A DNA stretch of 64,000 bases from NCBI GenBank assembly GCA_965208105.1, contig OZ242318.1, forward strand, positions 160,001 to 224,000. Reading direction: 5' to 3'. The position numbers were made by a program, and so were the translations under genes. This stretch comes from Candidatus Latescibacterota bacterium. GTDB taxonomy: Bacteria > Latescibacterota > UBA2968 > UBA8231. The notes under the pieces are model-generated. The model was not told the origin of the DNA. It saw only the letters and a program-made list of their open reading frames with translations, and did not search any database. This document shows positions 841 through 25,233 of the stretch, piece by piece (within the stretch, counting starts at the first letter, position 1; each line of letters opens with the position of its first letter).

Positions 841-3800
841 TCAGCCATCCCTCCGCGTTATCTCCACAACTTGGGCACCGACCTTCTCGAACATGTCCAC
901 GATGGTTCGATGACAGGTGAAGACCAGCACCTGGTTGGTCTGCGCCAGCTCCGAGAAAGCCTGTGCGGCCAGGCGGGCGCGCTCGGAGTCGAAGTTCACC
1001 AGGGCTTCGTCAACGACCACGGGAAGCCGCTCGGCGTGTTCGCCGAACTCCCGGATCAGTCCGAAGCGCAGGGCCAGGTAGAGCTGCTCGCGGGTGCCGC
1101 GGCTGAGCTCGGCGGGCTGTTTGTCACCTCCGTCGGCGGCGGTTACTGTAATGGTCTGCTCGCCGATGGGGACGTAGAGGCGCTGATAGCGGTCTCCGGT
1201 GATTCTGGAGAAGGAGGCCTGGGCATGCCGGATGACGCTGGGCTGGCGTTCCCGCTCGAACTTCTTCTGCGTCCTTTCCAGCAGGGCCTCGGCGAGGGTG
1301 AGCCGCGACCACTCGCCGGCGTGTTCCAGCAGTTGCTCCTGCAGGGCGCTGCGGCGGATGCGCAGGGCCGACGATTCTTCTTCGCTTGACAGTTGCATCA
1401 GCTCGGTGTCAATGCCGCCGCGCTCTTCCCGCAGCCCGTTGCACCGATTTTCGACTTCGCCCATACTCTCCGACAGCCGGGCGGATTCTTCCCGCATCCG
1501 GTTGGGGTCCGAGGTTGCCATCGAGTCGCAATAGGCGCCGAACCTGTCGGCGGGCCCGCTGATGCGCTCCAGGCCGCGGCGGTGCTCAGCCCGCTGCCGC
1601 TCCAGTTTCAGCCTCTCTTCATGCTGCCGCGCGCGGCGGCGAAACTCCTCGGGGTTGTCGCTGCCTCCCGCGGCCAGCAGTTCGGCTAGCACCTGCTCCT
1701 CTGATTGCAAACGCCGCTGCCGGTTTTCCAACAGTTGCCGGAGCTCATTCTCCAGTTTCCTGGCCTGTTCCCTGTGGGAAACCGCCGCTTGAGTCTCTTC
1801 ATACTGCCCGATGAGCTCGTCGGCAACGGAGGCCAGTTGGCCCAGGTCGTCAGGGTTGAGCGGCAGGCCGTGCCGCCGGGAAAGCGGCTCCACCTGCTCG
1901 CGGAACTCCTGGATGTCTTTTTCGATGGCCGCCACCCGGTCGCGCATGCGGCGGGCTTCGGCCAGGGAGCTGCGGGTGGTTTCGACGCGGGCGAGAAAGG
2001 TGGCCATGGCCTCCGGGGTCAATGACTGGTCCAGACGGCGCTCTCCGAGCCAGTTCCTCCATTCCTGCTGAATTTCCTGCGAAGACGCTTTCCCCTCTTC
2101 CTGATTCTGGACTGCGGTTTCCACCCGCTTTTCCTGCGCCTTCTCCCGGCGGCAGGCGTCCTCTACCCTCACCCTGGCCGCGTTCCACGAATCCAGCGCG
2201 TCTCGAGCGGTTTCCTGGTGAGCTTCCACCGAATCCAGGGCGGCGGCGTCCGGTTGCTCTGCAAGGTTTAGAGCAGCCGCCGATTTCAGCAGCGCCTGGC
2301 GCGCAGTTTCCGCCGCGGCTTCCTCGTCCGCAATCCGCTGGCGTATGGCGCTGGTCATTGGAGACCGCGCCGAACCAGGTACGGTCCTTCCTGCGAACCA
2401 AAGCACGGCCGCTGCGGCCACCAGGACCAACCCGGAGACCATTCCCATGAGCATGGAATCTCCGCCACGCAGCAATCCGCCTGTAAACAGCAGAATCCCT
2501 GTCAGCACGAGGCCGATTAGGAGAAGAGGATGTGGCCGCCCCCCGGCCCTTGCTGGGGTTTCCATGCTGGCTGCCAGGGCATCTTCCTGACCTTGCAGGT
2601 TTTGGAGGTTCTGGCGTCGTCTCTCGTACTCTGCCAATCGCCCCCTGGTGGCGCGCAGGTGGTCCTGACCTTCCCTGAGCGGCTTGTCGTCCAGGGGCGG
2701 CGGTTCCCGGGGCAGCTTGTCCCGGGCTTCCCGGGTTTCCTCCTGGCGGTCCTGCAGCGCTCGACACTCCTGCTCCAGTTGAAGCTGCGCTTGCCGGGCG
2801 CGTTCGTCGCTTTCGGTTACCTGCAGCCTCCAGCGGTCCACCTGGTTGCGCACCGGGAGGGAGGCATCGAAAGACAGCAGTTCGGTTTCGTCCCAGCCGT
2901 GTCCCAGGTCGGTTAGGTTGTTGGCGAAGTCGGCTTCCATTCCCCGCAGCTCCCCCTGGCGTTCCGGCAGGTCGCGGACGGAGTTGTCGAAGCTGCTGCG
3001 GGCCCGGCGGATTGATTCAACGCGCTCGCGGTCATCCAGCAACTCTTCTCCGGATATTTCCTCGGCTGCGGCTTCGCTGGCAAGCCGGAGTTGGTCAGCG
3101 GCTTCGTCCCGGTCGACACGGGCTTGCCGATCCCGATCCTCCAGGCTGTCCAGGCGGGGGATGGGGTCGTCCGGGAAGTCAACGTGCCGGGGCAGATCCC
3201 TCAGTCGCCTTTCGCAGTCCGAGAACGCCACCCAGTCGTCCCAGCCGTCAAGCCGGCGGTCGATTCCGTCGAGCTCGGCCTTGAGTCGGGTGAGCTCGGC
3301 GTCGGCGTCGCGCAGCTCCGCTTCAATCCCGGACTTGCGGGCGGTCAACCGGGGGTAGCGTTCGGCGTTTCCCCCGATGTCCCGAAGTTGCTCGTCGATG
3401 TCCCTCAGCATGCCGAGCAGTCCGGGGACGGCCCGATCGGTGCCGCGGCCCCGGCTCAGGTAGATCGTGTCCTTGCGGTCTCTGAGGGCCTTCCAGAGCG
3501 CCGGCAGTCCGGGCGCGCCCTGTCCGGCGCTGTATATGGTTCCACTGGAATCGTTGAGCGAAGCGGCCGCCTGCAGCTCATCGAGGCTGAAGGCGAATAC
3601 GTTGTGGAAGAGGTCCCGGCTGGCGTTGCCGGTGAGCCGCTGCAAAACGGCTTCGGGGTGGGATGCGGGTCCGTGCGGAGTGTCGATCTTCAAGCCGCCC
3701 CGCGCGCCGGCGTAGCGTTCAACCAGGTAGGAGACCCCGGCGCCGTCGGACAGTGAGATCCGCCCCCCGTGCCGACCCTCTGCCGGGGGGGGATAATGAT

Positions 3801-20474: not shown

Positions 20475-21725
20475 ATGAACCGACTGTGGTCCTATGGATC
20501 CGGCAACCCGGGAAGCCGGGATGGCAGGTTGTTCGGTCCCCACATGGCCGAGGAGAATCCCTTCGACCCCGACGAAATCGTCGTCGCCGAGCAGTGGGCT
20601 TCTGACGTTGTGCTGATCAACCGCGAGACCGGAAAATTACGGGTGGTTTTCGGGGAGCGCGGCGTTCCCGGAGGGGGAAAGCGACTGAACCTGGCGCACT
20701 CGGCACACTTCATGCCTTCCGGACCCTACGCCGGGCACATTTTGCTTACCGAGTTCCGCGGTGAACACCGGGTAATGATAGTCGAGCGCGACAAGGGTGC
20801 CGTTCTCTGGTGCTACACCGGGTGCCGTCGTCCTCTCGAGGCGATCCACTGGGACGATGATCACATCATGGTTTCCGACGGTGATGAAATCGTGAAGATC
20901 CGCCTCCGGGACCAGCAGGTGGTCTGGAATTTCCCCGCATGGCGCGCTTTCTACCTGCAGAAACTCCCGCCGCAGCCGTACGGTGCATCCTATGGGGGCG
21001 ATCTTCTGGTCCCCTTTTTCTCGTCGGACCCCAGCGGAGTCTGGGAGATCGACACCAGCACGGGAGAAAAGGTGTGGTCGTACGGGGAGAGGAAGGGACC
21101 GGGACACGGAGACCTCTACGACATGGTTTCCCGGGCGGCCTGTGCCCTGCGCTTCGGTATCCACGAGAAGTTCGGTGGCTACACCATCATCTGCAGCGAA
21201 CGCTCGCGAATTCTCTGTGTGAACCGGGACAAGGAGCTGGTTTGGGAGTTGGGGGGAGGCAGTGGGGACCATCTCGCCCCTGGGACGCCCTACGCCCTGC
21301 TGCCAACCTACATTGCGCCGACCACGAGAGGCACGCTCCTGGTCACCGACTGGGGCTTGAACATGATCTACGAGCTCGATCCGTTCCATATTCCACCGCG
21401 CTCGGTGAAGGACGCCTACCTCTGCAGGGAGGAGGAAATCGGGGATGATTTCACCGACAGCGGTACCATCGAGTCGCGGGGTTACGGCCATGTGACCGTC
21501 CAGGTCTTCAATCGACACCGAAACACGGGGTTGAACTGGCAGGTACTGGGCTCCCACAATGCAAGAGACTGGCAAGTCGTCCACTCTCCTCCAGAGAGGC
21601 TTGGCGGCGGGGAGTCGACCTGGACCACCATTTCCGAGCCGTGGAACTTCATCAAGACCCGGGCCGGGTCCGCAGTTCGGGGTGAGTCCGCGGTAGTAGA
21701 AGTATACGCCACCATGCGCCGCTAG
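20475..21725 (+). CDS. Hypothetical beta-propeller (PQQ/arylsulfotransferase-like repeats) protein
   Basis: Repeated units such as GAVLWCY, QQVVWNF, GEKVWSY and KELVWEL; AAGGAGG RBS upstream. Confidence 0.6.
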   Translation: MNRLWSYGSGNPGSRDGRLFGPHMAEENPFDPDEIVVAEQWASDVVLINRETGKLRVVFGERGVPGGGKRLNLAHSAHFMPSGPYAGHILLTEFRGEHRVMIVERDKGAVLWCYTGCRRPLEAIHWDDDHIMVSDGDEIVKIRLRDQQVVWNFPAWRAFYLQKLPPQPYGASYGGDLLVPFFSSDPSGVWEIDTSTGEKVWSYGERKGPGHGDLYDMVSRAACALRFGIHEKFGGYTIICSERSRILCVNRDKELVWELGGGSGDHLAPGTPYALLPTYIAPTTRGTLLVTDWGLNMIYELDPFHIPPRSVKDAYLCREEEIGDDFTDSGTIESRGYGHVTVQVFNRHRNTGLNWQVLGSHNARDWQVVHSPPERLGGGESTWTTISEPWNFIKTRAGSAVRGESAVVEVYATMRR

Positions 21726-21886
21726 TGTCCCGTCGCAGAGATAGGTTGACGAAATTGGGCCGCCGAGGCGCCAGGCTCACAAGGCGCCTGAGCGAGTCGT
21801 ACCAGTGGTGTACGGCGAGTGAAGGCAACGCCGTGAGCCGGGATGGATCGGCGGAAAAATGGCAACATATTTCTGCGACGGGACAC
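21725..21886 (-). mobile_element. MITE-like repeat, family A copy 2 (inverted), target of the IS110-family insertion
   Basis: Reverse complement of copy 1 with TIR GTGTCCCGTCGCAGA/TCTGCGACGGGACAC. Its left TAG is the stop codon of the upstream gene. Confidence 0.88.
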
Positions 21887-21959
21887 TGATATGTATTGAC
21901 GGTTGTCAACCCCCTCCGGGGTGGTCGTTTCGGGTGTTATCTTTGCATGAGTTTGTTCG

Positions 21960-22126
21960 GGAACAGAAGGGACGCTGTAGCGACGGTTGATCCGACTGAT
22001 ATTCGCGGGTTGGTTACCGCCTGTCCTGGGTGCGTCGCGGAGCGGCCTCAATCTAGAGTCGAGGGTCAGCCTGATAGGCGCCTCATAGTGTCTTCGAGGA
22101 TTCTCCTGACCGGTCCCTTCTGTCCC
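21960..22126 (-). ncRNA. Putative bridge/seek RNA of the IS1111-type element
   Basis: A 14-bp enclosing stem (22113-22126 with 21960-21973) holds two stem/internal-loop/stem modules. Loop sequences match the target (GACACTA, TCTAG) and the donor junction (ATATCAG). Transcript ends unknown. Confidence 0.75.
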
Positions 22127-22180
22127 GTTTCGATTTACATGAGCAAAGGTCCTATGCCGGCTTCTGAGACGATGAGCTTA

Positions 22181-23320
22181 TCAGGCGGCGATCCGAGGCC
22201 TCCTGGCCACGAGGCGGCCGGGGCGTTTCTGCTCCCAGGCGATGGCCCAGATGAAACCCAAAAGCTCCCGCGCGATCGCGGTGCAGACTTTGTTTTTCGG
22301 CATCCCTCGCCCACTCAGCCGTCGATAGCGTCCACACAGGCGTTTCTGTGCCTTCCAGGCGATGGCCTGTATGGGGGGTGCGGTCTGTTCGGCGCGTCGT
22401 TGCAAGGCGGCCGTCTTGCGGGCGGGAAAGCGATAGCACCAGGCGGCTTCCACCAGCACGCGCCGCACGTGGGCGTTGCCCGCCTTGGTGATCGCCCCTC
22501 GCTTTTGGCGGGAGCCGCTGGAATGCTCGCTGGGGACCAGACCGACGAAGGCCATCAGTTGGCGCGGCGAGTCAAAGCGGGTGAGGTCCCCCAACTCGGC
22601 CAGGGTCGTAACCGCGGTGAGCGTGTCTACCCCGCGCAGCGCCCTCATAGCCCGCGTCTCCCCTTCCAAAGACCATCCCTCCAGCGCCTGCTGCAGGGCC
22701 TGGTCCAACCCCTGGATCCGACCTTGGGCTTCCTGTACCGCGTCCACGTATTCCTGAAAGACGATCTGCTGGGCCGGATGATCGAAGCGCTGGGTCTGCA
22801 GCCAGCGAAAGTGGGCTTGGGTCCAGCGACTGCGCCCGGAGTAGATCCGGCCGTGGCGCTGCAAGAAGCTGTTCAGCCGCTGGCGCACGCGGCGCTCGGC
22901 GTGCTTGAAGTCTTCCCGGCAGCGCTCCAGATCGCGCATCGCCTCCTGCGCTTCGTCGGGCACCCACACGGGGGTCAACTCGCCGTGTTGGAAAAGCCGC
23001 ACCAGAGACACAGCATCGCGGCGGTCGGTCTTGATGCGGTCGCCCGGCCGACGCGGGATCAGCGAGGGCGCCACCACCGTGCAGGCGTGCCCCAGGGCTG
23101 TGAGCTGACGGTAGACGCCGTAGCCGCAGGGTCCGGCCTCGTAGCAAAACCGCAACGAGGTCCCACCACGGGCCAGTTGGCCCGCCAGCTTGGACAACGC
23201 GGCGCCCGTAGACGGTATCGTTCCATACAGGTCTGGCCCTTTTCGGCCTTCACCGGCCAGGGCGACGGTGATCGAATCTTTATGTATGTCCAAGGCGACG
23301 AATTTCGTAGATTTACGCAT
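22181..23320 (-). CDS. IS110-family transposase/recombinase
   Basis: RuvC-like DEDD residues in ALDIHK, CYEAG and KTDRRDA; C-terminal GLVPSEHSSG and GAITKAGN; GGAGG RBS before ATG 23320. Confidence 0.95.
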   Translation of the reverse strand: MRKSTKFVALDIHKDSITVALAGEGRKGPDLYGTIPSTGAALSKLAGQLARGGTSLRFCYEAGPCGYGVYRQLTALGHACTVVAPSLIPRRPGDRIKTDRRDAVSLVRLFQHGELTPVWVPDEAQEAMRDLERCREDFKHAERRVRQRLNSFLQRHGRIYSGRSRWTQAHFRWLQTQRFDHPAQQIVFQEYVDAVQEAQGRIQGLDQALQQALEGWSLEGETRAMRALRGVDTLTAVTTLAELGDLTRFDSPRQLMAFVGLVPSEHSSGSRQKRGAITKAGNAHVRRVLVEAAWCYRFPARKTAALQRRAEQTAPPIQAIAWKAQKRLCGRYRRLSGRGMPKNKVCTAIARELLGFIWAIAWEQKRPGRLVARRPRIAA

Positions 23321-23580
23321 GGCCTCCTCCTTCTCGCTGGGGATAGGTCTTTGGGTGAACTCCGTTTTCCCAAAGATAACCCCCGACAACCGAGTCGGAG
23401 GAGGTCTTTCATATCTCCGTCAATACATAAGGTCTAGACGTGGCTCAGCCCGGTGAGAAGGGGCAGGGCCTGACAGGCCTCCGTACCCGCTCGGCGAGGC
23501 GGGGCTTCTCCCGTGACCACAACCTTAGTACAATACCCTGGTCGATTCGGCTCCCGGTACCCCGAACTTAATCCAAGGAG

Positions 23581-25233
23581 ATGCAACGCATGGACGCAGA
23601 ACGAGAGCGAGCGCGCTGGCGCCGCCGGCGGATCATCTACAACAACGACGGCGACGACGTGATCGAAGCCCGCCCCGAGGGCGATGAGCACGACCACGAC
23701 GTCAACGAATCTCTCATGGTGCGCTCCAGCGACGATCTGGTTCAGGATTATCTGGCCGCCCGCAGCACTCCATTGATCGGCTCGCAGGTGGACAGCAACT
23801 GGTTCGCCACCGCCATGGCCGGGCTCACCTTCTCCCACCAGACCAGGCTGGGAGGATTCTACGGCAAGGGGGTTCCCCTGGAGCTGGTGGAGAGGTACGG
23901 GCGCGACCCCCTGCAGATCCAGCTGGACTTCAGCCGCGAAAACGGCATGGAGGCGGCCTGGGCCCTGCGCATGAACGATGTCCACGACGCCTTCCCCATG
24001 GGTTCGCGCAGATATACCTACGGTCTGGCCAGGTTCAAGCGGGAAAACCCGGGTTACATGATCGGCGAGGATGGCGACTGGGAGAAATTCGCGGACGACC
24101 CGGTCAAACGGGCATGGACGCGATTGGACTTCGCCATTCCGGAGGTCCGCGACCACATCTTCGCCGTAATCGAGGAGGTGGCGGAGAACTACGACGTGGA
24201 CCTCATCGGAATGGAGTTCTTCAAGTACTGGCCCTTCTTCCGCGAGTCCATGGAGTTGGATCCCGTAACGCCCGAGCACTTGGAGATCATGAACGACCTT
24301 CTGCGCCGCATTCGCCGCATGGCGGACGGGGTCGCCGCCCGCCGCGGCCGCCCGCTGCTTTTGGCAGCCCACACACCCTTCAGCCTGGAGGATTGCGTCC
24401 ACGTCGGGGTGGACCTGGAAACCTGGCTCAAGGAAGATCTGATCGACCAGTTCTGCCCCGGAGGCAATTACGAGTCGGTCCTGCGCGATTCCTACCACGG
24501 CATCGTCGACCTGGGACACAGGTACGAGGTCCCCGTATATCCCTGCCTCTCCTGGGGGTTCTGGGACCGCTGGGTATTTCACCGGAGCGACGGCAAGTAC
24601 AGGCGGTTCGACGATTGGGTAAAGAACCTGTACGGGGGACAGCCGGAGCGCATCGGCTGTCCGGAGTACGTCGCGCTGTTCAACGGGTGGGAGGGCTCGT
24701 TCCCCGCCTGGCGCGGCGCCGCCATGAACCTGCTCAACGCCGGAGCCGATGGACTCTACCTCTTCAATCCCGCCCTCGGTGATCCGCGGGTGTGGCGGGA
24801 GATCGGCGAGGTGTCCTCCATGGCGGGGAAGGACCGCCTCTACGGCATCGATCGTTTCCCCGCCGGCGACAGCTTCAATGACGTCGCCGAAGTGTACCTG
24901 AAGCCCGGCATGCCGGTAGCCGCCAGCTTTCAGGTCGGAGAGGACGTGGGGACCAGCGGTGCAAACAGGCTGGATTTCAGCCTCCACCTGTGGAACCACG
25001 CGGCGGGCGACCGGGTGGCGGTAAAACTGAACGGGACTTCGGTCCCCGGCTTGAAGCCGGCCGAGCCCGGGAGGAACCCGGAGCGGGGCCAGTGGCTCGA
25101 AGGCGAGGTCGAAGCCCGCCAGGTGAACCGGGGCGAGAACCAGTTGGAGGTTGCCGTCGAGGAACGGGGCGGATCAGCCTCCGACACCCTGGTCATGGAC
25201 TCGGCCCAGCTCCGGGTCCGCTGCGAGCGCTGA
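23581..25233 (+). CDS. Hypothetical glycoside-hydrolase-like TIM-barrel protein (GHL10/DUF187-like) with C-terminal beta-sandwich
   Basis: IIYNNDGDD, LRMNDVH, LDFAIPEVRD, NYDVD and GADGLYLFN motifs; AAGGAG RBS. Confidence 0.55.
   Translation: MQRMDAERERARWRRRRIIYNNDGDDVIEARPEGDEHDHDVNESLMVRSSDDLVQDYLAARSTPLIGSQVDSNWFATAMAGLTFSHQTRLGGFYGKGVPLELVERYGRDPLQIQLDFSRENGMEAAWALRMNDVHDAFPMGSRRYTYGLARFKRENPGYMIGEDGDWEKFADDPVKRAWTRLDFAIPEVRDHIFAVIEEVAENYDVDLIGMEFFKYWPFFRESMELDPVTPEHLEIMNDLLRRIRRMADGVAARRGRPLLLAAHTPFSLEDCVHVGVDLETWLKEDLIDQFCPGGNYESVLRDSYHGIVDLGHRYEVPVYPCLSWGFWDRWVFHRSDGKYRRFDDWVKNLYGGQPERIGCPEYVALFNGWEGSFPAWRGAAMNLLNAGADGLYLFNPALGDPRVWREIGEVSSMAGKDRLYGIDRFPAGDSFNDVAEVYLKPGMPVAASFQVGEDVGTSGANRLDFSLHLWNHAAGDRVAVKLNGTSVPGLKPAEPGRNPERGQWLEGEVEARQVNRGENQLEVAVEERGGSASDTLVMDSAQLRVRCER

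What the first reader, a model, noticed from the sequence alone, without database searches (positions are those of the whole stretch)
21960..22126. Readable bridge RNA: guide loops encode both the MITE target and the IS donor junction
Seen (minus strand, 3' of the transposase): the outer stem GGGACAGAAGGGAC/GTCCCTTCTGTTCC encloses two modules. Module 1 is GGAG..CCTC[gaaGACACTAt]GAGG-hairpin-CCTC[gacTCTAGatt]GAGG..CTCC. GACACTA (22092-22086) equals the top strand of the target ggGACA-CT-Aga, and TCTAG (22057-22053) equals its bottom strand. Module 2 is GCGACG[cacccAGGACAG]GCGG-loop-CCGC[gaATATCAGtcgg..]CGTCGC. ATATCAG (22002-21996) equals the bottom strand of the donor junction aggt-CT-GATAT, while AGGACAG is only 5/7 to the top strand AGGTCTG. 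All the matches span the CT core. Known: IS110/IS1111 recombinases use a bispecific ncRNA with target- and donor-binding loops. Inference: an intact RNA-guided recombinase system programmed against a MITE. The system class is described, but this ortholog and target may not be.
Basis: partly seen in the sequence, partly recalled or inferred. Interest (0 to 1): 0.9.

Follow-up and report, generated by a model that had tools for sequence, protein, structure and literature searches.

The report
Bridge RNA of a MITE-targeting IS1111-type element
This is the guide ("bridge"/seek) RNA gene of an active-looking IS110/IS1111-family insertion sequence whose guide loops spell out the end of a small repeated transposon that it inserts into; it is a clear new example of a system described in 2024, not a new kind of system.

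Summary
Window 22126-21960 (minus strand) folds into an outer stem enclosing two stem-internal-loop modules. It lies 3' of a 379-aa IS110-family DEDD transposase, inside a 1.55-kb IS with 13-bp subterminal inverted repeats.

The genome holds 12 copies. Ten sit in the terminus of a 160-bp MITE, always in the same orientation.

A covariance model found the same RNA just after the transposase gene in 77 of 80 related loci from many phyla. Base pairs covary strongly: 92% of cells paired against 36-46% when the pairing partner is slid. An independent RNAalifold run gave the same architecture.

The loop nucleotides covary with the insertion sites. The left-target guide matches the flank at 3.7 of 5 positions, against 1.4 when shuffled. 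The right-target guide matches at the two positions next to the core.

Verdict: a bridge/seekRNA of an IS1111-group element, a new member of a known kind. IS1111 itself is already known to target a MITE (PMC5896051).

The parts
21886..23433 (-). Insertion sequence (1548 bp, counting one copy of the AG/CT core). Twelve copies in the genome at 95.6-100% identity.
   Evidence: BLAST against own genome. The flanks of all copies define the ends. Unoccupied MITE ends give the empty site.
22181..23320 (-). Transposase/recombinase CDS, 379 aa. Motif residues are D11, E61, D99, D102 and S268-G269, within GLVPSEHSSG.
   Evidence: Pfam PF01548 + PF02371. NCBIfam NF033542 at 263 bits. Motifs aligned to ISCro4/IS621 chains. 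Residue numbers.
21960..22126 (-). Bridge RNA (seekRNA) gene: a 14-15-bp outer stem enclosing the target-binding module and the donor-binding module.
   Evidence: Fold. CM hits in 77 of 80 related loci. Covariation.
22086..22092 (-). Left target guide GACA-CU-A, on the 5' side of the target loop. It has the same sense as + strand GACA-CT-A at the MITE terminus and pairs with the other strand.
   Evidence: The family pattern is N5-CU-A, with N5 covarying with the flank.
22053..22057 (-). Right target guide UC-U-AG, on the 3' side of the target loop. It pairs with + strand CT-A-GA/GG.
   Evidence: In the family the two positions next to UAG match the flank in 86% and 58% of 57 unique cases, against 33% and 26% shuffled.
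22051..22052 (-). Two nucleotides (AU) 3' of the right target guide. They are complementary to donor positions T7/G6 and not to target A7/C6, so they are a candidate handshake guide.
   Evidence: Sequence. The handshake rule comes from passages of PMC11208158. The A is invariant in 78 of 78 aligned RNAs, so it cannot be tested by covariation.
22021..22027 (-). Left donor guide AGGACAG, on the 5' side of the donor loop. It matches + strand AGGT-CT-G of the circle junction at 5 of 7 positions.
   Evidence: The family has xxGUCAG against LE AG-ACAT, with a conserved mismatch at core position 2 (A in 74 of 78 rows). L080 changes both sides together.
21996..22002 (-). Right donor guide AUAUCAG, on the 3' side of the donor loop. 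It is identical to the sense-strand right-end terminus ATATC-AG (7 of 7).
   Evidence: Guide and end change together in L013 and in L031/L022/L076. Three loci (L036, L052, L058) have an unmatched single change.
23417..23429 (-). Left subterminal inverted repeat TATGTATTGACGG. It is preceded by the 4-nt extension ACCT.
   Evidence: Sequence. Present in all 12 copies.
21890..21902 (-). Right subterminal inverted repeat CCGTCAATACATA. It is followed by TC and then the core AG.
   Evidence: Sequence. Conserved in related loci.
21726..21885 (.). Target MITE, 160 bp with 14-bp terminal inverted repeats. There are 77 full-length copies in the genome. The IS sits exactly at its terminus.
   Evidence: BLAST census and flanks. 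The motif GGGACACTAG occurs 75 times in the genome.
23434..23438 (-). Left flank TCT-AG (right half of the target plus the second core copy). It lies outside the MITE and consists of the MITE's TA duplication plus neighbouring bases.
   Evidence: CTAG precedes the IS in 12 of 12 copies.

Best explanation
The region encodes the bispecific guide RNA (bridge RNA; long seekRNA) of an IS1111-group member of the IS110 family.

How it is inferred to work. The RNA is transcribed on the transposase strand from the 295-nt non-coding region 3' of the gene. It folds into an outer stem that holds two internal-loop modules.

In the first loop, GACA-CU-A pairs with one strand of the MITE terminus. UC-U-AG pairs with the other strand of the adjoining TA duplication. 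The two guides overlap on the CT core.

In the second loop, AUAUCAG and AGGACAG pair with the two strands of the circle junction formed by the joined IS ends (...AAGGT-CT-GATAT...).

A tetramer of the DEDD/serine recombinase then exchanges strands at the CT core. This places the IS between the MITE's last base and its target-site duplication, always with the IS right end against the MITE body.

What is shown here: the sequence anatomy; conservation and covariation of the RNA structure; covariation of the guides with insertion sites and with IS ends; and the targeting pattern in this genome.

What is inferred by homology to IS621, ISEc11 and related elements: transcription, RNA-protein binding and the chemistry of recombination.
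For: (1) Protein. The transposase hits PF01548 (5.6e-13) and PF02371 (1.7e-22), and NF033542 'IS110 family RNA-guided transposase' at 263 bits against a cut-off of 140. The D11/E61/D99/D102 and S268-G269 motifs are present.

(2) IS1111 layout. The element has 13-bp subterminal repeats. The non-coding regions are 113 nt on the left and 295 nt on the right.

(3) Structure. The MFE fold gives the two modules. Model R1 finds a full-length match (63-217 bits) directly after the gene in 77 of 80 loci whose transposases are 57-85% identical. Of the 3 loci without a match, 2 are cut by contig ends.

On that alignment 92.2% of cells pair, against 36-46% for slid partners. Of 44 pairs, 29 have compensatory changes, including 15 of 15 in the outer stem. 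None of 500 shuffles reaches the observed values.

U-G is the commonest pair at one position (43 of 61 distinct rows). That fits RNA of this strand only.

RNAalifold on an independent MAFFT alignment of 30 sequences recovers the same helices.

(4) Target guides covary with flanks. The left guide matches at 3.71 of 5 positions against 1.44 shuffled, and 19 of 45 pairs are perfect. The match is register-specific. The right guide matches at position -1 in 86% of cases and at -2 in 58%. The UAG/AAG/GAG triplet matches the flank in 96% of 57 unique cases.

(5) Donor guides. The right donor guide is 7/7 here. Guide and IS end change together in L013 and in L031/L022/L076, and the left donor guide and left end change together in L080.

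(6) This genome. There are 12 copies. Seven RNA genes are identical and the left target guide is invariant. Ten of 12 copies lie in MITE termini in one orientation. The other two lie in sites that keep CA-CT-AG. The one copy with right guide CCUAG has flank CCTAG.

(7) Guide order. The guide complementary to the transposase-sense strand lies 5' of the other. Siddiquee et al. report this order for IS1111-type seekRNAs (PMC11187229, abstract and section 9).
Against: No sigma-70-like promoter was found in 21700-23600.

No Rfam family matches at E <= 10.

The left donor guide has two mismatches (5/7). One of them lies on the core and recurs in 74 of 78 related RNAs, which the IS621 model does not predict.

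Two of the 12 copies carry right guide CAUAG, which mismatches their own CCTAG flank.

Three related loci have a right donor guide change without a matching change in the IS end.

The nucleotide after the right donor guide fits the IS621 'handshake' rule here (U opposite target A7). In most relatives it does not: it is A where the target base is mostly C.

The 379-aa transposase is longer than the 330-350 aa that Siddiquee et al. give for IS1111-family proteins (section 6).
Confidence: 0.9

Rival explanations
1. Only the first module is the working guide. This would be a short seekRNA of about 80-100 nt that carries the two target matches. The second module and the outer stem would belong to a precursor or to the DNA-level IS end, and the IS ends would be recognised mainly by the protein through the subterminal repeats.
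For: Siddiquee et al. found that the predominant RNA co-purifying with three IS1111-type transposases was 82-96 nt and carried the target matches. Longer forms also existed (PMC11187229, section 9).

The left donor guide here is only 5/7, with a family-wide core mismatch. The donor loop is nearly invariant across the family, so covariation evidence for it is thin: it rests on 3 independent events.
Against: The outer stem that ties both modules together has compensatory changes in 15 of 15 pairs. That argues for selection on the full-length RNA.

The donor-loop helices also covary.

The right donor guide is 7/7, and it changes together with the IS end in L013 and in the L031 group.
Confidence: 0.07
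2. The structure is a 3' UTR, terminator or transposase-binding element with no guide role. On this view the loop/flank matches arise because the element's ends and flanks are repetitive.
For: No expression or binding data exist. There is no Rfam match. Within this one genome the flanks are all the same MITE, so the 12 copies alone cannot prove guidance.
Against: Across 45 unique guide/flank pairs from different genomes with different targets, the loop sequence tracks the flank. The match is 3.71 of 5 against 1.44 shuffled, and it disappears on a 1-nt shift.

The stems are conserved while the loop positions are hypervariable. That is the reverse of what a protein-binding or terminator element would show.
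Confidence: 0.02
3. The system is a fossil. The RNA and IS are recognisable but no longer mobile in this genome.
For: Five of 12 copies have an altered longest ORF (410, 410, 410, 254 and 339 aa). Two carry a right-guide variant that mismatches their flank. A decayed older copy and a solo 3' remnant also exist.
Against: Seven copies have the full 379-aa ORF: 5 are identical and 2 differ by one residue. Seven RNA genes are identical. Five copies are at least 99.87% identical over about 1560 bp at different loci. That indicates recent transposition.
Confidence: 0.05

Closest known systems
IS1111-group seekRNA / bridge RNA systems (ISEc11, ISPa11, ISKpn4, ISPst6; Siddiquee et al. 2024, PMC11187229; Durrant et al. 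2024, PMC11208160)
   Same: Both have a DEDD + Tnp recombinase with the GL-P----SG motif. Both have subterminal inverted repeats and the long non-coding region with the RNA 3' of the gene. In both, two short guides match opposite strands of the target and overlap at the core, with the sense-strand-complementary guide first. There is no target-site duplication.
   Different: The transposase is 379 aa, against the 330-350 aa stated for the family. The target is different (a MITE terminus plus its TA duplication). I could not compare by name with ISfinder entries. The supplements and figures that hold the ISAzs32/ISCARN28/ISPa11 structures were not available, so this RNA family may already be among those modelled by Durrant et al.
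IS621 bridge RNA (IS110 group; Durrant et al. 2024; Hiraizumi et al. 2024, PMC11208158)
   Same: Both have two internal loops, one for the target and one for the donor. [quoted passage not shown] All four guides include the CT core. The right target guide is short (4-5 nt with core). The nucleotide after the right target guide pairs with donor position 7 (handshake).
   Different: Here the RNA lies 3' of the gene, so the element is inverted relative to the core when compared with IS621. An outer stem encloses both modules. The left target guide is 5+2(+1) nt rather than 7+2. The left donor guide carries a conserved mismatch on core position 2. The donor-loop handshake position does not follow the IS621 rule in most relatives. 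Protein similarity to IS621 is limited to the Tnp domain (E 2e-5).
IS1111 of Coxiella burnetii inserting into QMITE2 (Wachter et al. 2018, PMC5896051; passages read)
   Same: An IS1111-family element uses a MITE as its preferred target. There, 20 of 21 IS1111 copies lie in QMITE2. Here, 10 of 12 copies lie in MITE termini.
   Different: There the site is a GTAG palindrome inside the MITE. Here it is the junction of the MITE's terminal inverted repeat with its TA duplication, so either end of each MITE offers a site. The MITE families are unrelated.
[quoted passage not shown]
   Same: An IS1111-family element is aimed at the terminal inverted repeat of another transposon, in a fixed orientation.
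   Different: The target here is a non-autonomous 160-bp MITE rather than a Tn3-family transposon. That paper itself was not read.

Membership tests
IS110 family, IS1111 group (insertion sequence) | N-terminal DEDD (RuvC-like) domain | tested here: met
   PF01548 at 5.6e-13, residues 8-155. D11, E61, D99 and D102 are present in the expected motifs.
IS110 family, IS1111 group (insertion sequence) | C-terminal Tnp domain with GL-P----S(T)G motif | tested here: met
   PF02371 at 1.7e-22. GLVPSEHSSG at residues 260-269. The motif definition is from PMC11187229 section 6.
IS110 family, IS1111 group (insertion sequence) | Scores above the curated cut-off of the NCBI family model | tested here: met
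   NF033542 'IS110 family RNA-guided transposase' at 263.4 bits against a cut-off of 140.
IS110 family, IS1111 group (insertion sequence) | Subterminal inverted repeats of 7-17 bp with short terminal extensions | tested here: met
   A 13-bp pair at 23429-23417 and 21902-21890. The extensions are ACCT and TC, followed by the core. The range is from PMC11208160.
IS110 family, IS1111 group (insertion sequence) | Longer non-coding region downstream of the transposase gene | tested here: met
   295 nt downstream against 113 nt upstream.
IS110 family, IS1111 group (insertion sequence) | Site-specific insertion without target duplication, with the core dinucleotide at both junctions | tested here: met
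   All 12 of 12 copies read ...CT-AG|IS...C-AG|T.... Empty MITE ends read CTAG-TGTCCC uninterrupted.
Bridge RNA / seekRNA | Conserved structured RNA in the long non-coding end with two internal loops | tested here: met
Bridge RNA / seekRNA | Target-loop guides complementary to both strands of the target, overlapping at the core | tested here: met
   GACA-CU-A and UC-U-AG against GGGACA-CT-AGA/G.
Bridge RNA / seekRNA | Donor-loop guides complementary to both strands of the joined IS ends | tested here: inconclusive
   The right guide is 7/7. The left guide is 5/7, with a family-wide mismatch on the core. Guide and end change together in only three lineages.
Bridge RNA / seekRNA | Guides covary with insertion sites across orthologues | tested here: met
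   (figures given above).
Bridge RNA / seekRNA | RNA is expressed and bound by the recombinase | not testable with these tools
No promoter was found by consensus scan.
Bridge RNA / seekRNA | Changing the guides reprograms the target or donor | not testable with these tools
   This needs a bench assay.

The most novel reading that the evidence does not exclude
This widespread bridge-RNA clade (found here in 77 of 80 related loci across many phyla, and in Cupriavidus, Azospirillum and Sphingobium plasmids) may recognise its donor differently from IS621.

The left donor guide carries a conserved non-pairing A opposite core position 2 (74 of 78 RNAs). The neighbouring guide position covaries with the nucleotide just after the right donor guide (U:A in 22, A:U in 4 of 30 sequences), even though the DNA base it should read stays the same. 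That suggests an intra-loop RNA pair which gates donor binding or strand exchange.

In addition, the IS and its MITE target each other. The DNA encoding the right target guide must contain the MITE's own preferred CTAG site, and one older IS copy was split exactly there by a MITE.
Probability: 0.15. Interest if true: 0.5.

Novelty: new member of a known kind. Interest (0 to 1): 0.3.

Why it matters
This is a clean natural example in which all four guides of an IS1111-type bridge RNA can be read against known target and donor sequences. Twelve copies in one genome and 78 aligned orthologous RNAs back the reading.

It adds a usable covariance model for a clade that Rfam 15 does not detect. The clade is compact, with an RNA of about 165 nt and a recombinase of about 365-380 aa. 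Its target rule is short and well defined: N5-CT-A-N2.

It also documents an IS that parasitises the termini of a MITE. None of this changes the known principle. The practical value is as one more orthologue for bridge-recombinase engineering, and as an annotation rule for such loci.

Tried and rejected
Rfam scan of 21500-23700 at E <= 10 gave only three chance-level snoRNA-type hits and nothing on the RNA.

The sigma-70 promoter scan of 21700-23600 found none. The minus-strand terminator-like sites lie in the left end and inside the gene, not after the RNA. The start and end of the transcript therefore remain unknown.

I looked by eye for a junction promoter (the conserved TTGACA in the right end plus a -10 in the left end). 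Relatives could form TTGACA-17 nt-CATCAT. In this element the spacing is 2 nt longer and no -10 is evident. This was not pursued and is not claimed.

The IS621 handshake rule was tested on the donor loop. It fits here (U opposite target A7), but not in most relatives. It is not used as evidence.

I tried to explain the variable trinucleotide after the right donor guide in three ways: pairing with the target, pairing with the donor top strand, or pairing with the left donor guide. None fits all rows, so it is left unexplained.

I searched for an autonomous partner of the MITE, meaning inverted terminal repeats 600-4000 bp apart. Only two pairs turned up (3457 and 2837 bp), and they were not examined.

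PDB sequence search gave only weak Tnp-domain matches to ISCro4 and IS621. No structure prediction was run because it would not change the verdict.

Supplementary files and figures of PMC11208160 and PMC11187229 were not seen. They hold the modelled IS1111-type RNAs and target logos, and may already include this clade.

Rows dropped before counts:
- Nine of 78 RNA rows had no right end found by the end-motif search.
- Rows with truncated flanks were removed, and identical guide/flank pairs were collapsed (65 to 45 for the left guide, 60 to 57 for the right).
- Some remaining mismatches are alignment-register errors in rows with unusual loop lengths (for example L046, L053-57, L065). These rows were left in, so the match rates are conservative.

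Full report
**What is there.**
On the minus strand the window carries a 1548-bp insertion sequence (21886-23433). Reading in the sense of its gene, the parts are as follows:
- flank ...GTCT-AG;
- a 4-nt extension ACCT;
- a 13-bp subterminal repeat (23429-23417);
- a 379-aa ORF (23320-22181);
- a 295-nt non-coding region;
- the inverted copy of the repeat (21902-21890);
- TC, then AG, then the flank TGTCCCGTCGCAG... .

The ORF matches Pfam DEDD_Tnp_IS110 and Transposase_20. It also matches NCBIfam NF033542, 'IS110 family RNA-guided transposase', at 263 bits against a cut-off of 140. The motifs D11, E61, D99, D102 and GLVPSEHS-S268-G269 are present. The N-terminal alignment to the solved ISCro4 chain is weak on its own.

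**The observation.**
RNAfold of 22135-21955 returns the described architecture at -65.1 kcal/mol and z = -2.68; 3 of 200 shuffles fold as well. The architecture is:
- an outer stem (22126-22113 with 21973-21960);
- a first module, GGAG/CUCC and CCUCGA/UUGAGG, closing an 8 x 8-nt internal loop, then UGAGG/CCUCG and a hairpin;
- a second module, GCGACG/CGUCGC, closing a 12 x 19-nt loop capped by GCGG/CCGC.

**Copies and target in this genome.**
BLAST of the IS against the 4.85-Mb genome finds 12 near-full copies at 95.6-100% identity. One of them has an internal deletion. There is also a 166-nt 3' remnant and an 85%-identical fragment.

In all 12 copies the left flank ends in CTAG. The base before CTAG is T in 4 copies, C in 7 and G in 1.

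In 10 of 12 copies the right flank is the terminus of one MITE family, at either of its two ends. The IS right end always abuts the MITE body. The two exceptions have TGGTCG and TGTTGT in that place.

The MITE is 160 bp (window 21726-21885) and has 77 full-length copies. Unoccupied copies read CTAG-TGTCCC...GGGACA-CTAG in 28 of 77. The outermost flank base varies while the inner G and C do not. This fits a TA duplication with a CTAG site preference. I recall that behaviour for IS630-type elements but did not test it here.

On the + strand, then, the target is GGGACA-CT-A-G(A/G). The CT core spans the MITE's last base and the first base of its duplication. GGGACACTAG occurs 75 times in the genome.

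Seven of the 12 copies keep the 379-aa ORF; 5 are identical and 2 differ by one residue. The other five have longest ORFs of 410, 410, 410, 254 and 339 aa. Seven RNA genes are identical and the left target guide is invariant in all 12.

The right guide is UCUAG in 9 copies, CCUAG in 1 and CAUAG in 2. The CCUAG copy has flank CCTAG. The two CAUAG copies mismatch their own flanks.

**Reading the guides.**
I take the + strand as 'top', as in the IS621 scheme quoted.
- Left target guide: GACA-CU-A equals the top strand of left target + core + 1. It therefore pairs with the bottom strand.
- Right target guide: UC-U-AG is the reverse complement of CT-A-GA. It allows U-G with CT-A-GG, which covers 11 of 12 flanks.
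- Right donor guide: AUAUCAG is the reverse complement of CT-GATAT (7/7).

In the sense of the transposase gene, the guide complementary to the top strand comes first. Siddiquee et al. report this order for IS1111-type seekRNAs, reversed relative to IS110-type elements (abstract and section 9).

**Is it a conserved RNA?**
A genome-collection scan with the transposase returned 80 loci at 57-85% identity. They come from MAGs and isolates of many phyla. A covariance model built from the five RNA variants of this genome found 78 full-length matches of 63-217 bits in 77 of the 80 loci. Each match lies directly after the gene on the same strand. Of the three loci without a match, L005 and L009 end within 66 nt of the gene. 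L079 has downstream DNA but no match.

On the model-fitted alignment, 92.2% of cells form standard pairs, against 36-46% when partners are slid by 1-3 columns. Of 44 pairs, 29 show changes on both sides, including 15 of 15 in the outer stem. No shuffle out of 500 reaches the observed values. Because that alignment leans towards the model, I repeated the test with RNAalifold on a plain MAFFT alignment of 30 sequences. It recovers the outer stem and both modules, and 26 of its 40 predicted pairs have compensatory changes.

U-G is the commonest pair at one position (43 of 61 distinct rows). On the opposite strand that would be C-A, so the selected structure belongs to this strand.

The same RNA is present after IS110-family genes on plasmids of Cupriavidus necator, Azospirillum argentinense and Sphingobium fuliginis. 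The own genome has 13 matches: the 12 copies plus the remnant.

**Do the guides covary with targets?**
In the family the target loop reads N5-CU-A on the 5' side and N4-UAG-A on the 3' side. The stems are conserved and the N positions are hypervariable.

I located the right ends in 69 of 78 rows by their conserved terminus. I located the left ends by the inverted repeat.

*Left target guide.* For 45 unique guide/flank pairs, the five N match the reverse complement of the right flank at 3.71 of 5 positions. Per-position rates are 0.58-0.87. Nineteen pairs are perfect and 29 match at 4 or more. Shuffled pairings give 1.44 (sd 0.16, maximum 1.98). Shifting the flank by 1-4 nt drops the score from 3.78 to 1.72, 1.52, 1.04 and 1.18 (50 pairs).

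*Right target guide.* For 57 unique pairs, the positions adjacent to UAG match in 86% and 58%, against 33% and 26% shuffled. The two outer positions do not match (30% and 21%). The triplet itself (UAG, AAG or GAG) agrees with the flank in 96%.

The working guides are therefore about 5+2+1 nt and 2+1+2 nt. In this element four of the five variable left positions match the MITE (GACA). Position -5 is A where the MITE has G.

**Donor loop.**
The donor loop is nearly invariant, as are the IS ends, so covariation is sparse.

The right donor guide and the right end change together in L013 (AUAACAG with ATAACAG) and in L031/L022/L076 (AUACCAG with ATACCAG). L036, L052 and L058 have a guide change without a change in the end.

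The left donor guide reads xxGUCAG against left ends AG-ACAT. In L080 it reads CUCUG and the left end reads AG-AGAA. In this element and in L001-L003, x2 = G goes with left end ACCT; the left end of L004, which has the same guide, was not found. L008 has G without that change.

The second core position of the left donor guide is A, a mismatch, in 74 of 78 rows. It is C in 3 rows and U in 1.

The guide position next to the core covaries with the nucleotide just after the right donor guide. It is U:A in 22 and A:U in 4 of 30 sequences. The first base of the left end, however, stays A. I have no tested explanation for this.

**Handshake positions.**
The rule comes from passages of PMC11208158. 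The A after the right target guide is complementary to donor T7 and not to target A7. It is invariant in the family, so this is consistent but untestable.

The U after the right donor guide pairs with target A7 here. In relatives that base is mostly A while the target base is mostly C. The rule is therefore not supported for the donor loop.

**What was not shown.**
Transcription, RNA ends and protein binding were not shown. The promoter scan found nothing.

**Comparison and novelty.**
The class is described in three papers: Durrant et al. 2024 (passages read), Siddiquee et al. 2024 (abstract and sections 6, 9 and 13 read) and Hiraizumi et al. 2024 (passages read).

Durrant et al. state that they predicted bridge RNAs in the right end of 93% of ISfinder IS1111 elements. 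They inspected ISAzs32, ISCARN28 and ISPa11. I could not see those figures or supplements, so this clade may already be among them.

Targeting of a MITE by an IS1111-family element also has precedent. IS1111 itself lies in QMITE2 in 20 of 21 copies (Wachter et al. 2018, passages read). My one literature search on this point (IS1111 / MITE / terminal inverted repeat) showed no report of this element.

I therefore file it as a new member of a known kind. The features that differ from the published descriptions are:
- the 379-aa protein, against the stated 330-350 aa;
- the conserved core mismatch in the left donor guide;
- the target being the junction of a MITE terminus with its duplication.

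**Verdict.**
Confidence that this is the bridge/seekRNA gene of an IS1111-group element aimed at the MITE terminus is 0.9. Interest is 0.3.

Noticed in passing
window 21726-21885; 77 full-length copies genome-wide: A 160-bp MITE family with 14-bp terminal inverted repeats. The flanks fit a TA duplication within a preferred CTAG site. No autonomous partner with the same ends was found in this genome; the only inverted-end pairs at 600-4000 bp are two, at 3457 and 2837 bp.
   Followed up: partly
L084 96-307 and 2015-2176 (genome 3999400-3999611 and 4001319-4001480): An older, decayed copy of the IS (RNA region 83-85% identical) is split exactly at the TTAG/CTAG that encodes its right target guide. 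The split was made by a MITE insertion. A young IS copy then inserted into the far end of that MITE. The guide-coding DNA necessarily contains the MITE's preferred site, so the two elements target each other.
   Followed up: partly
L092 437-595 (genome 3931282-3931440): A solo 3' remnant of the IS. The donor-binding module and the 3' half of the outer stem are kept at about 94% identity. The target-binding loop is deleted or replaced and there is no transposase gene.
   Followed up: partly
A3 columns 145/175 (window 22024 and 21995): The left-donor-guide position next to the core covaries with the nucleotide just after the right donor guide (U:A in 22, A:U in 4 of 30). The DNA base it should read does not change. 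This may be an intra-loop RNA pair.
   Followed up: partly
L007, L036, L022, L024-L027, L015, L006, L012, L061, L047 (right flanks): Related elements in different taxa all sit next to near-identical flanks of the type GAG(C/G/T)CTGTCGGACTTA. That suggests this clade commonly targets a conserved repeat or the end of another mobile element.
   Followed up: no
L021, L038 and L094 (Cupriavidus necator pENH92): These distant relatives carry the same left target guide core as this element (GACACUA). Where the flank is visible, it reads TGTCC... (L021) or TGTC at the contig end (L038). Whether they target a related MITE end was not examined.
   Followed up: no
L025 and L026, downstream of the RNA: The right-end terminus is followed directly by a second copy of the post-RNA non-coding segment. 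This looks like a tandem partial duplication of the right end.
   Followed up: no
window 21905-21910 and relatives: A TTGACA hexamer just inside the right subterminal repeat is conserved in nearly all relatives. In relatives it lies 17 nt from CATCAT across the predicted circle junction, a possible junction promoter. In this element the spacing is 2 nt longer and no -10 is evident (judged by eye).
   Followed up: no
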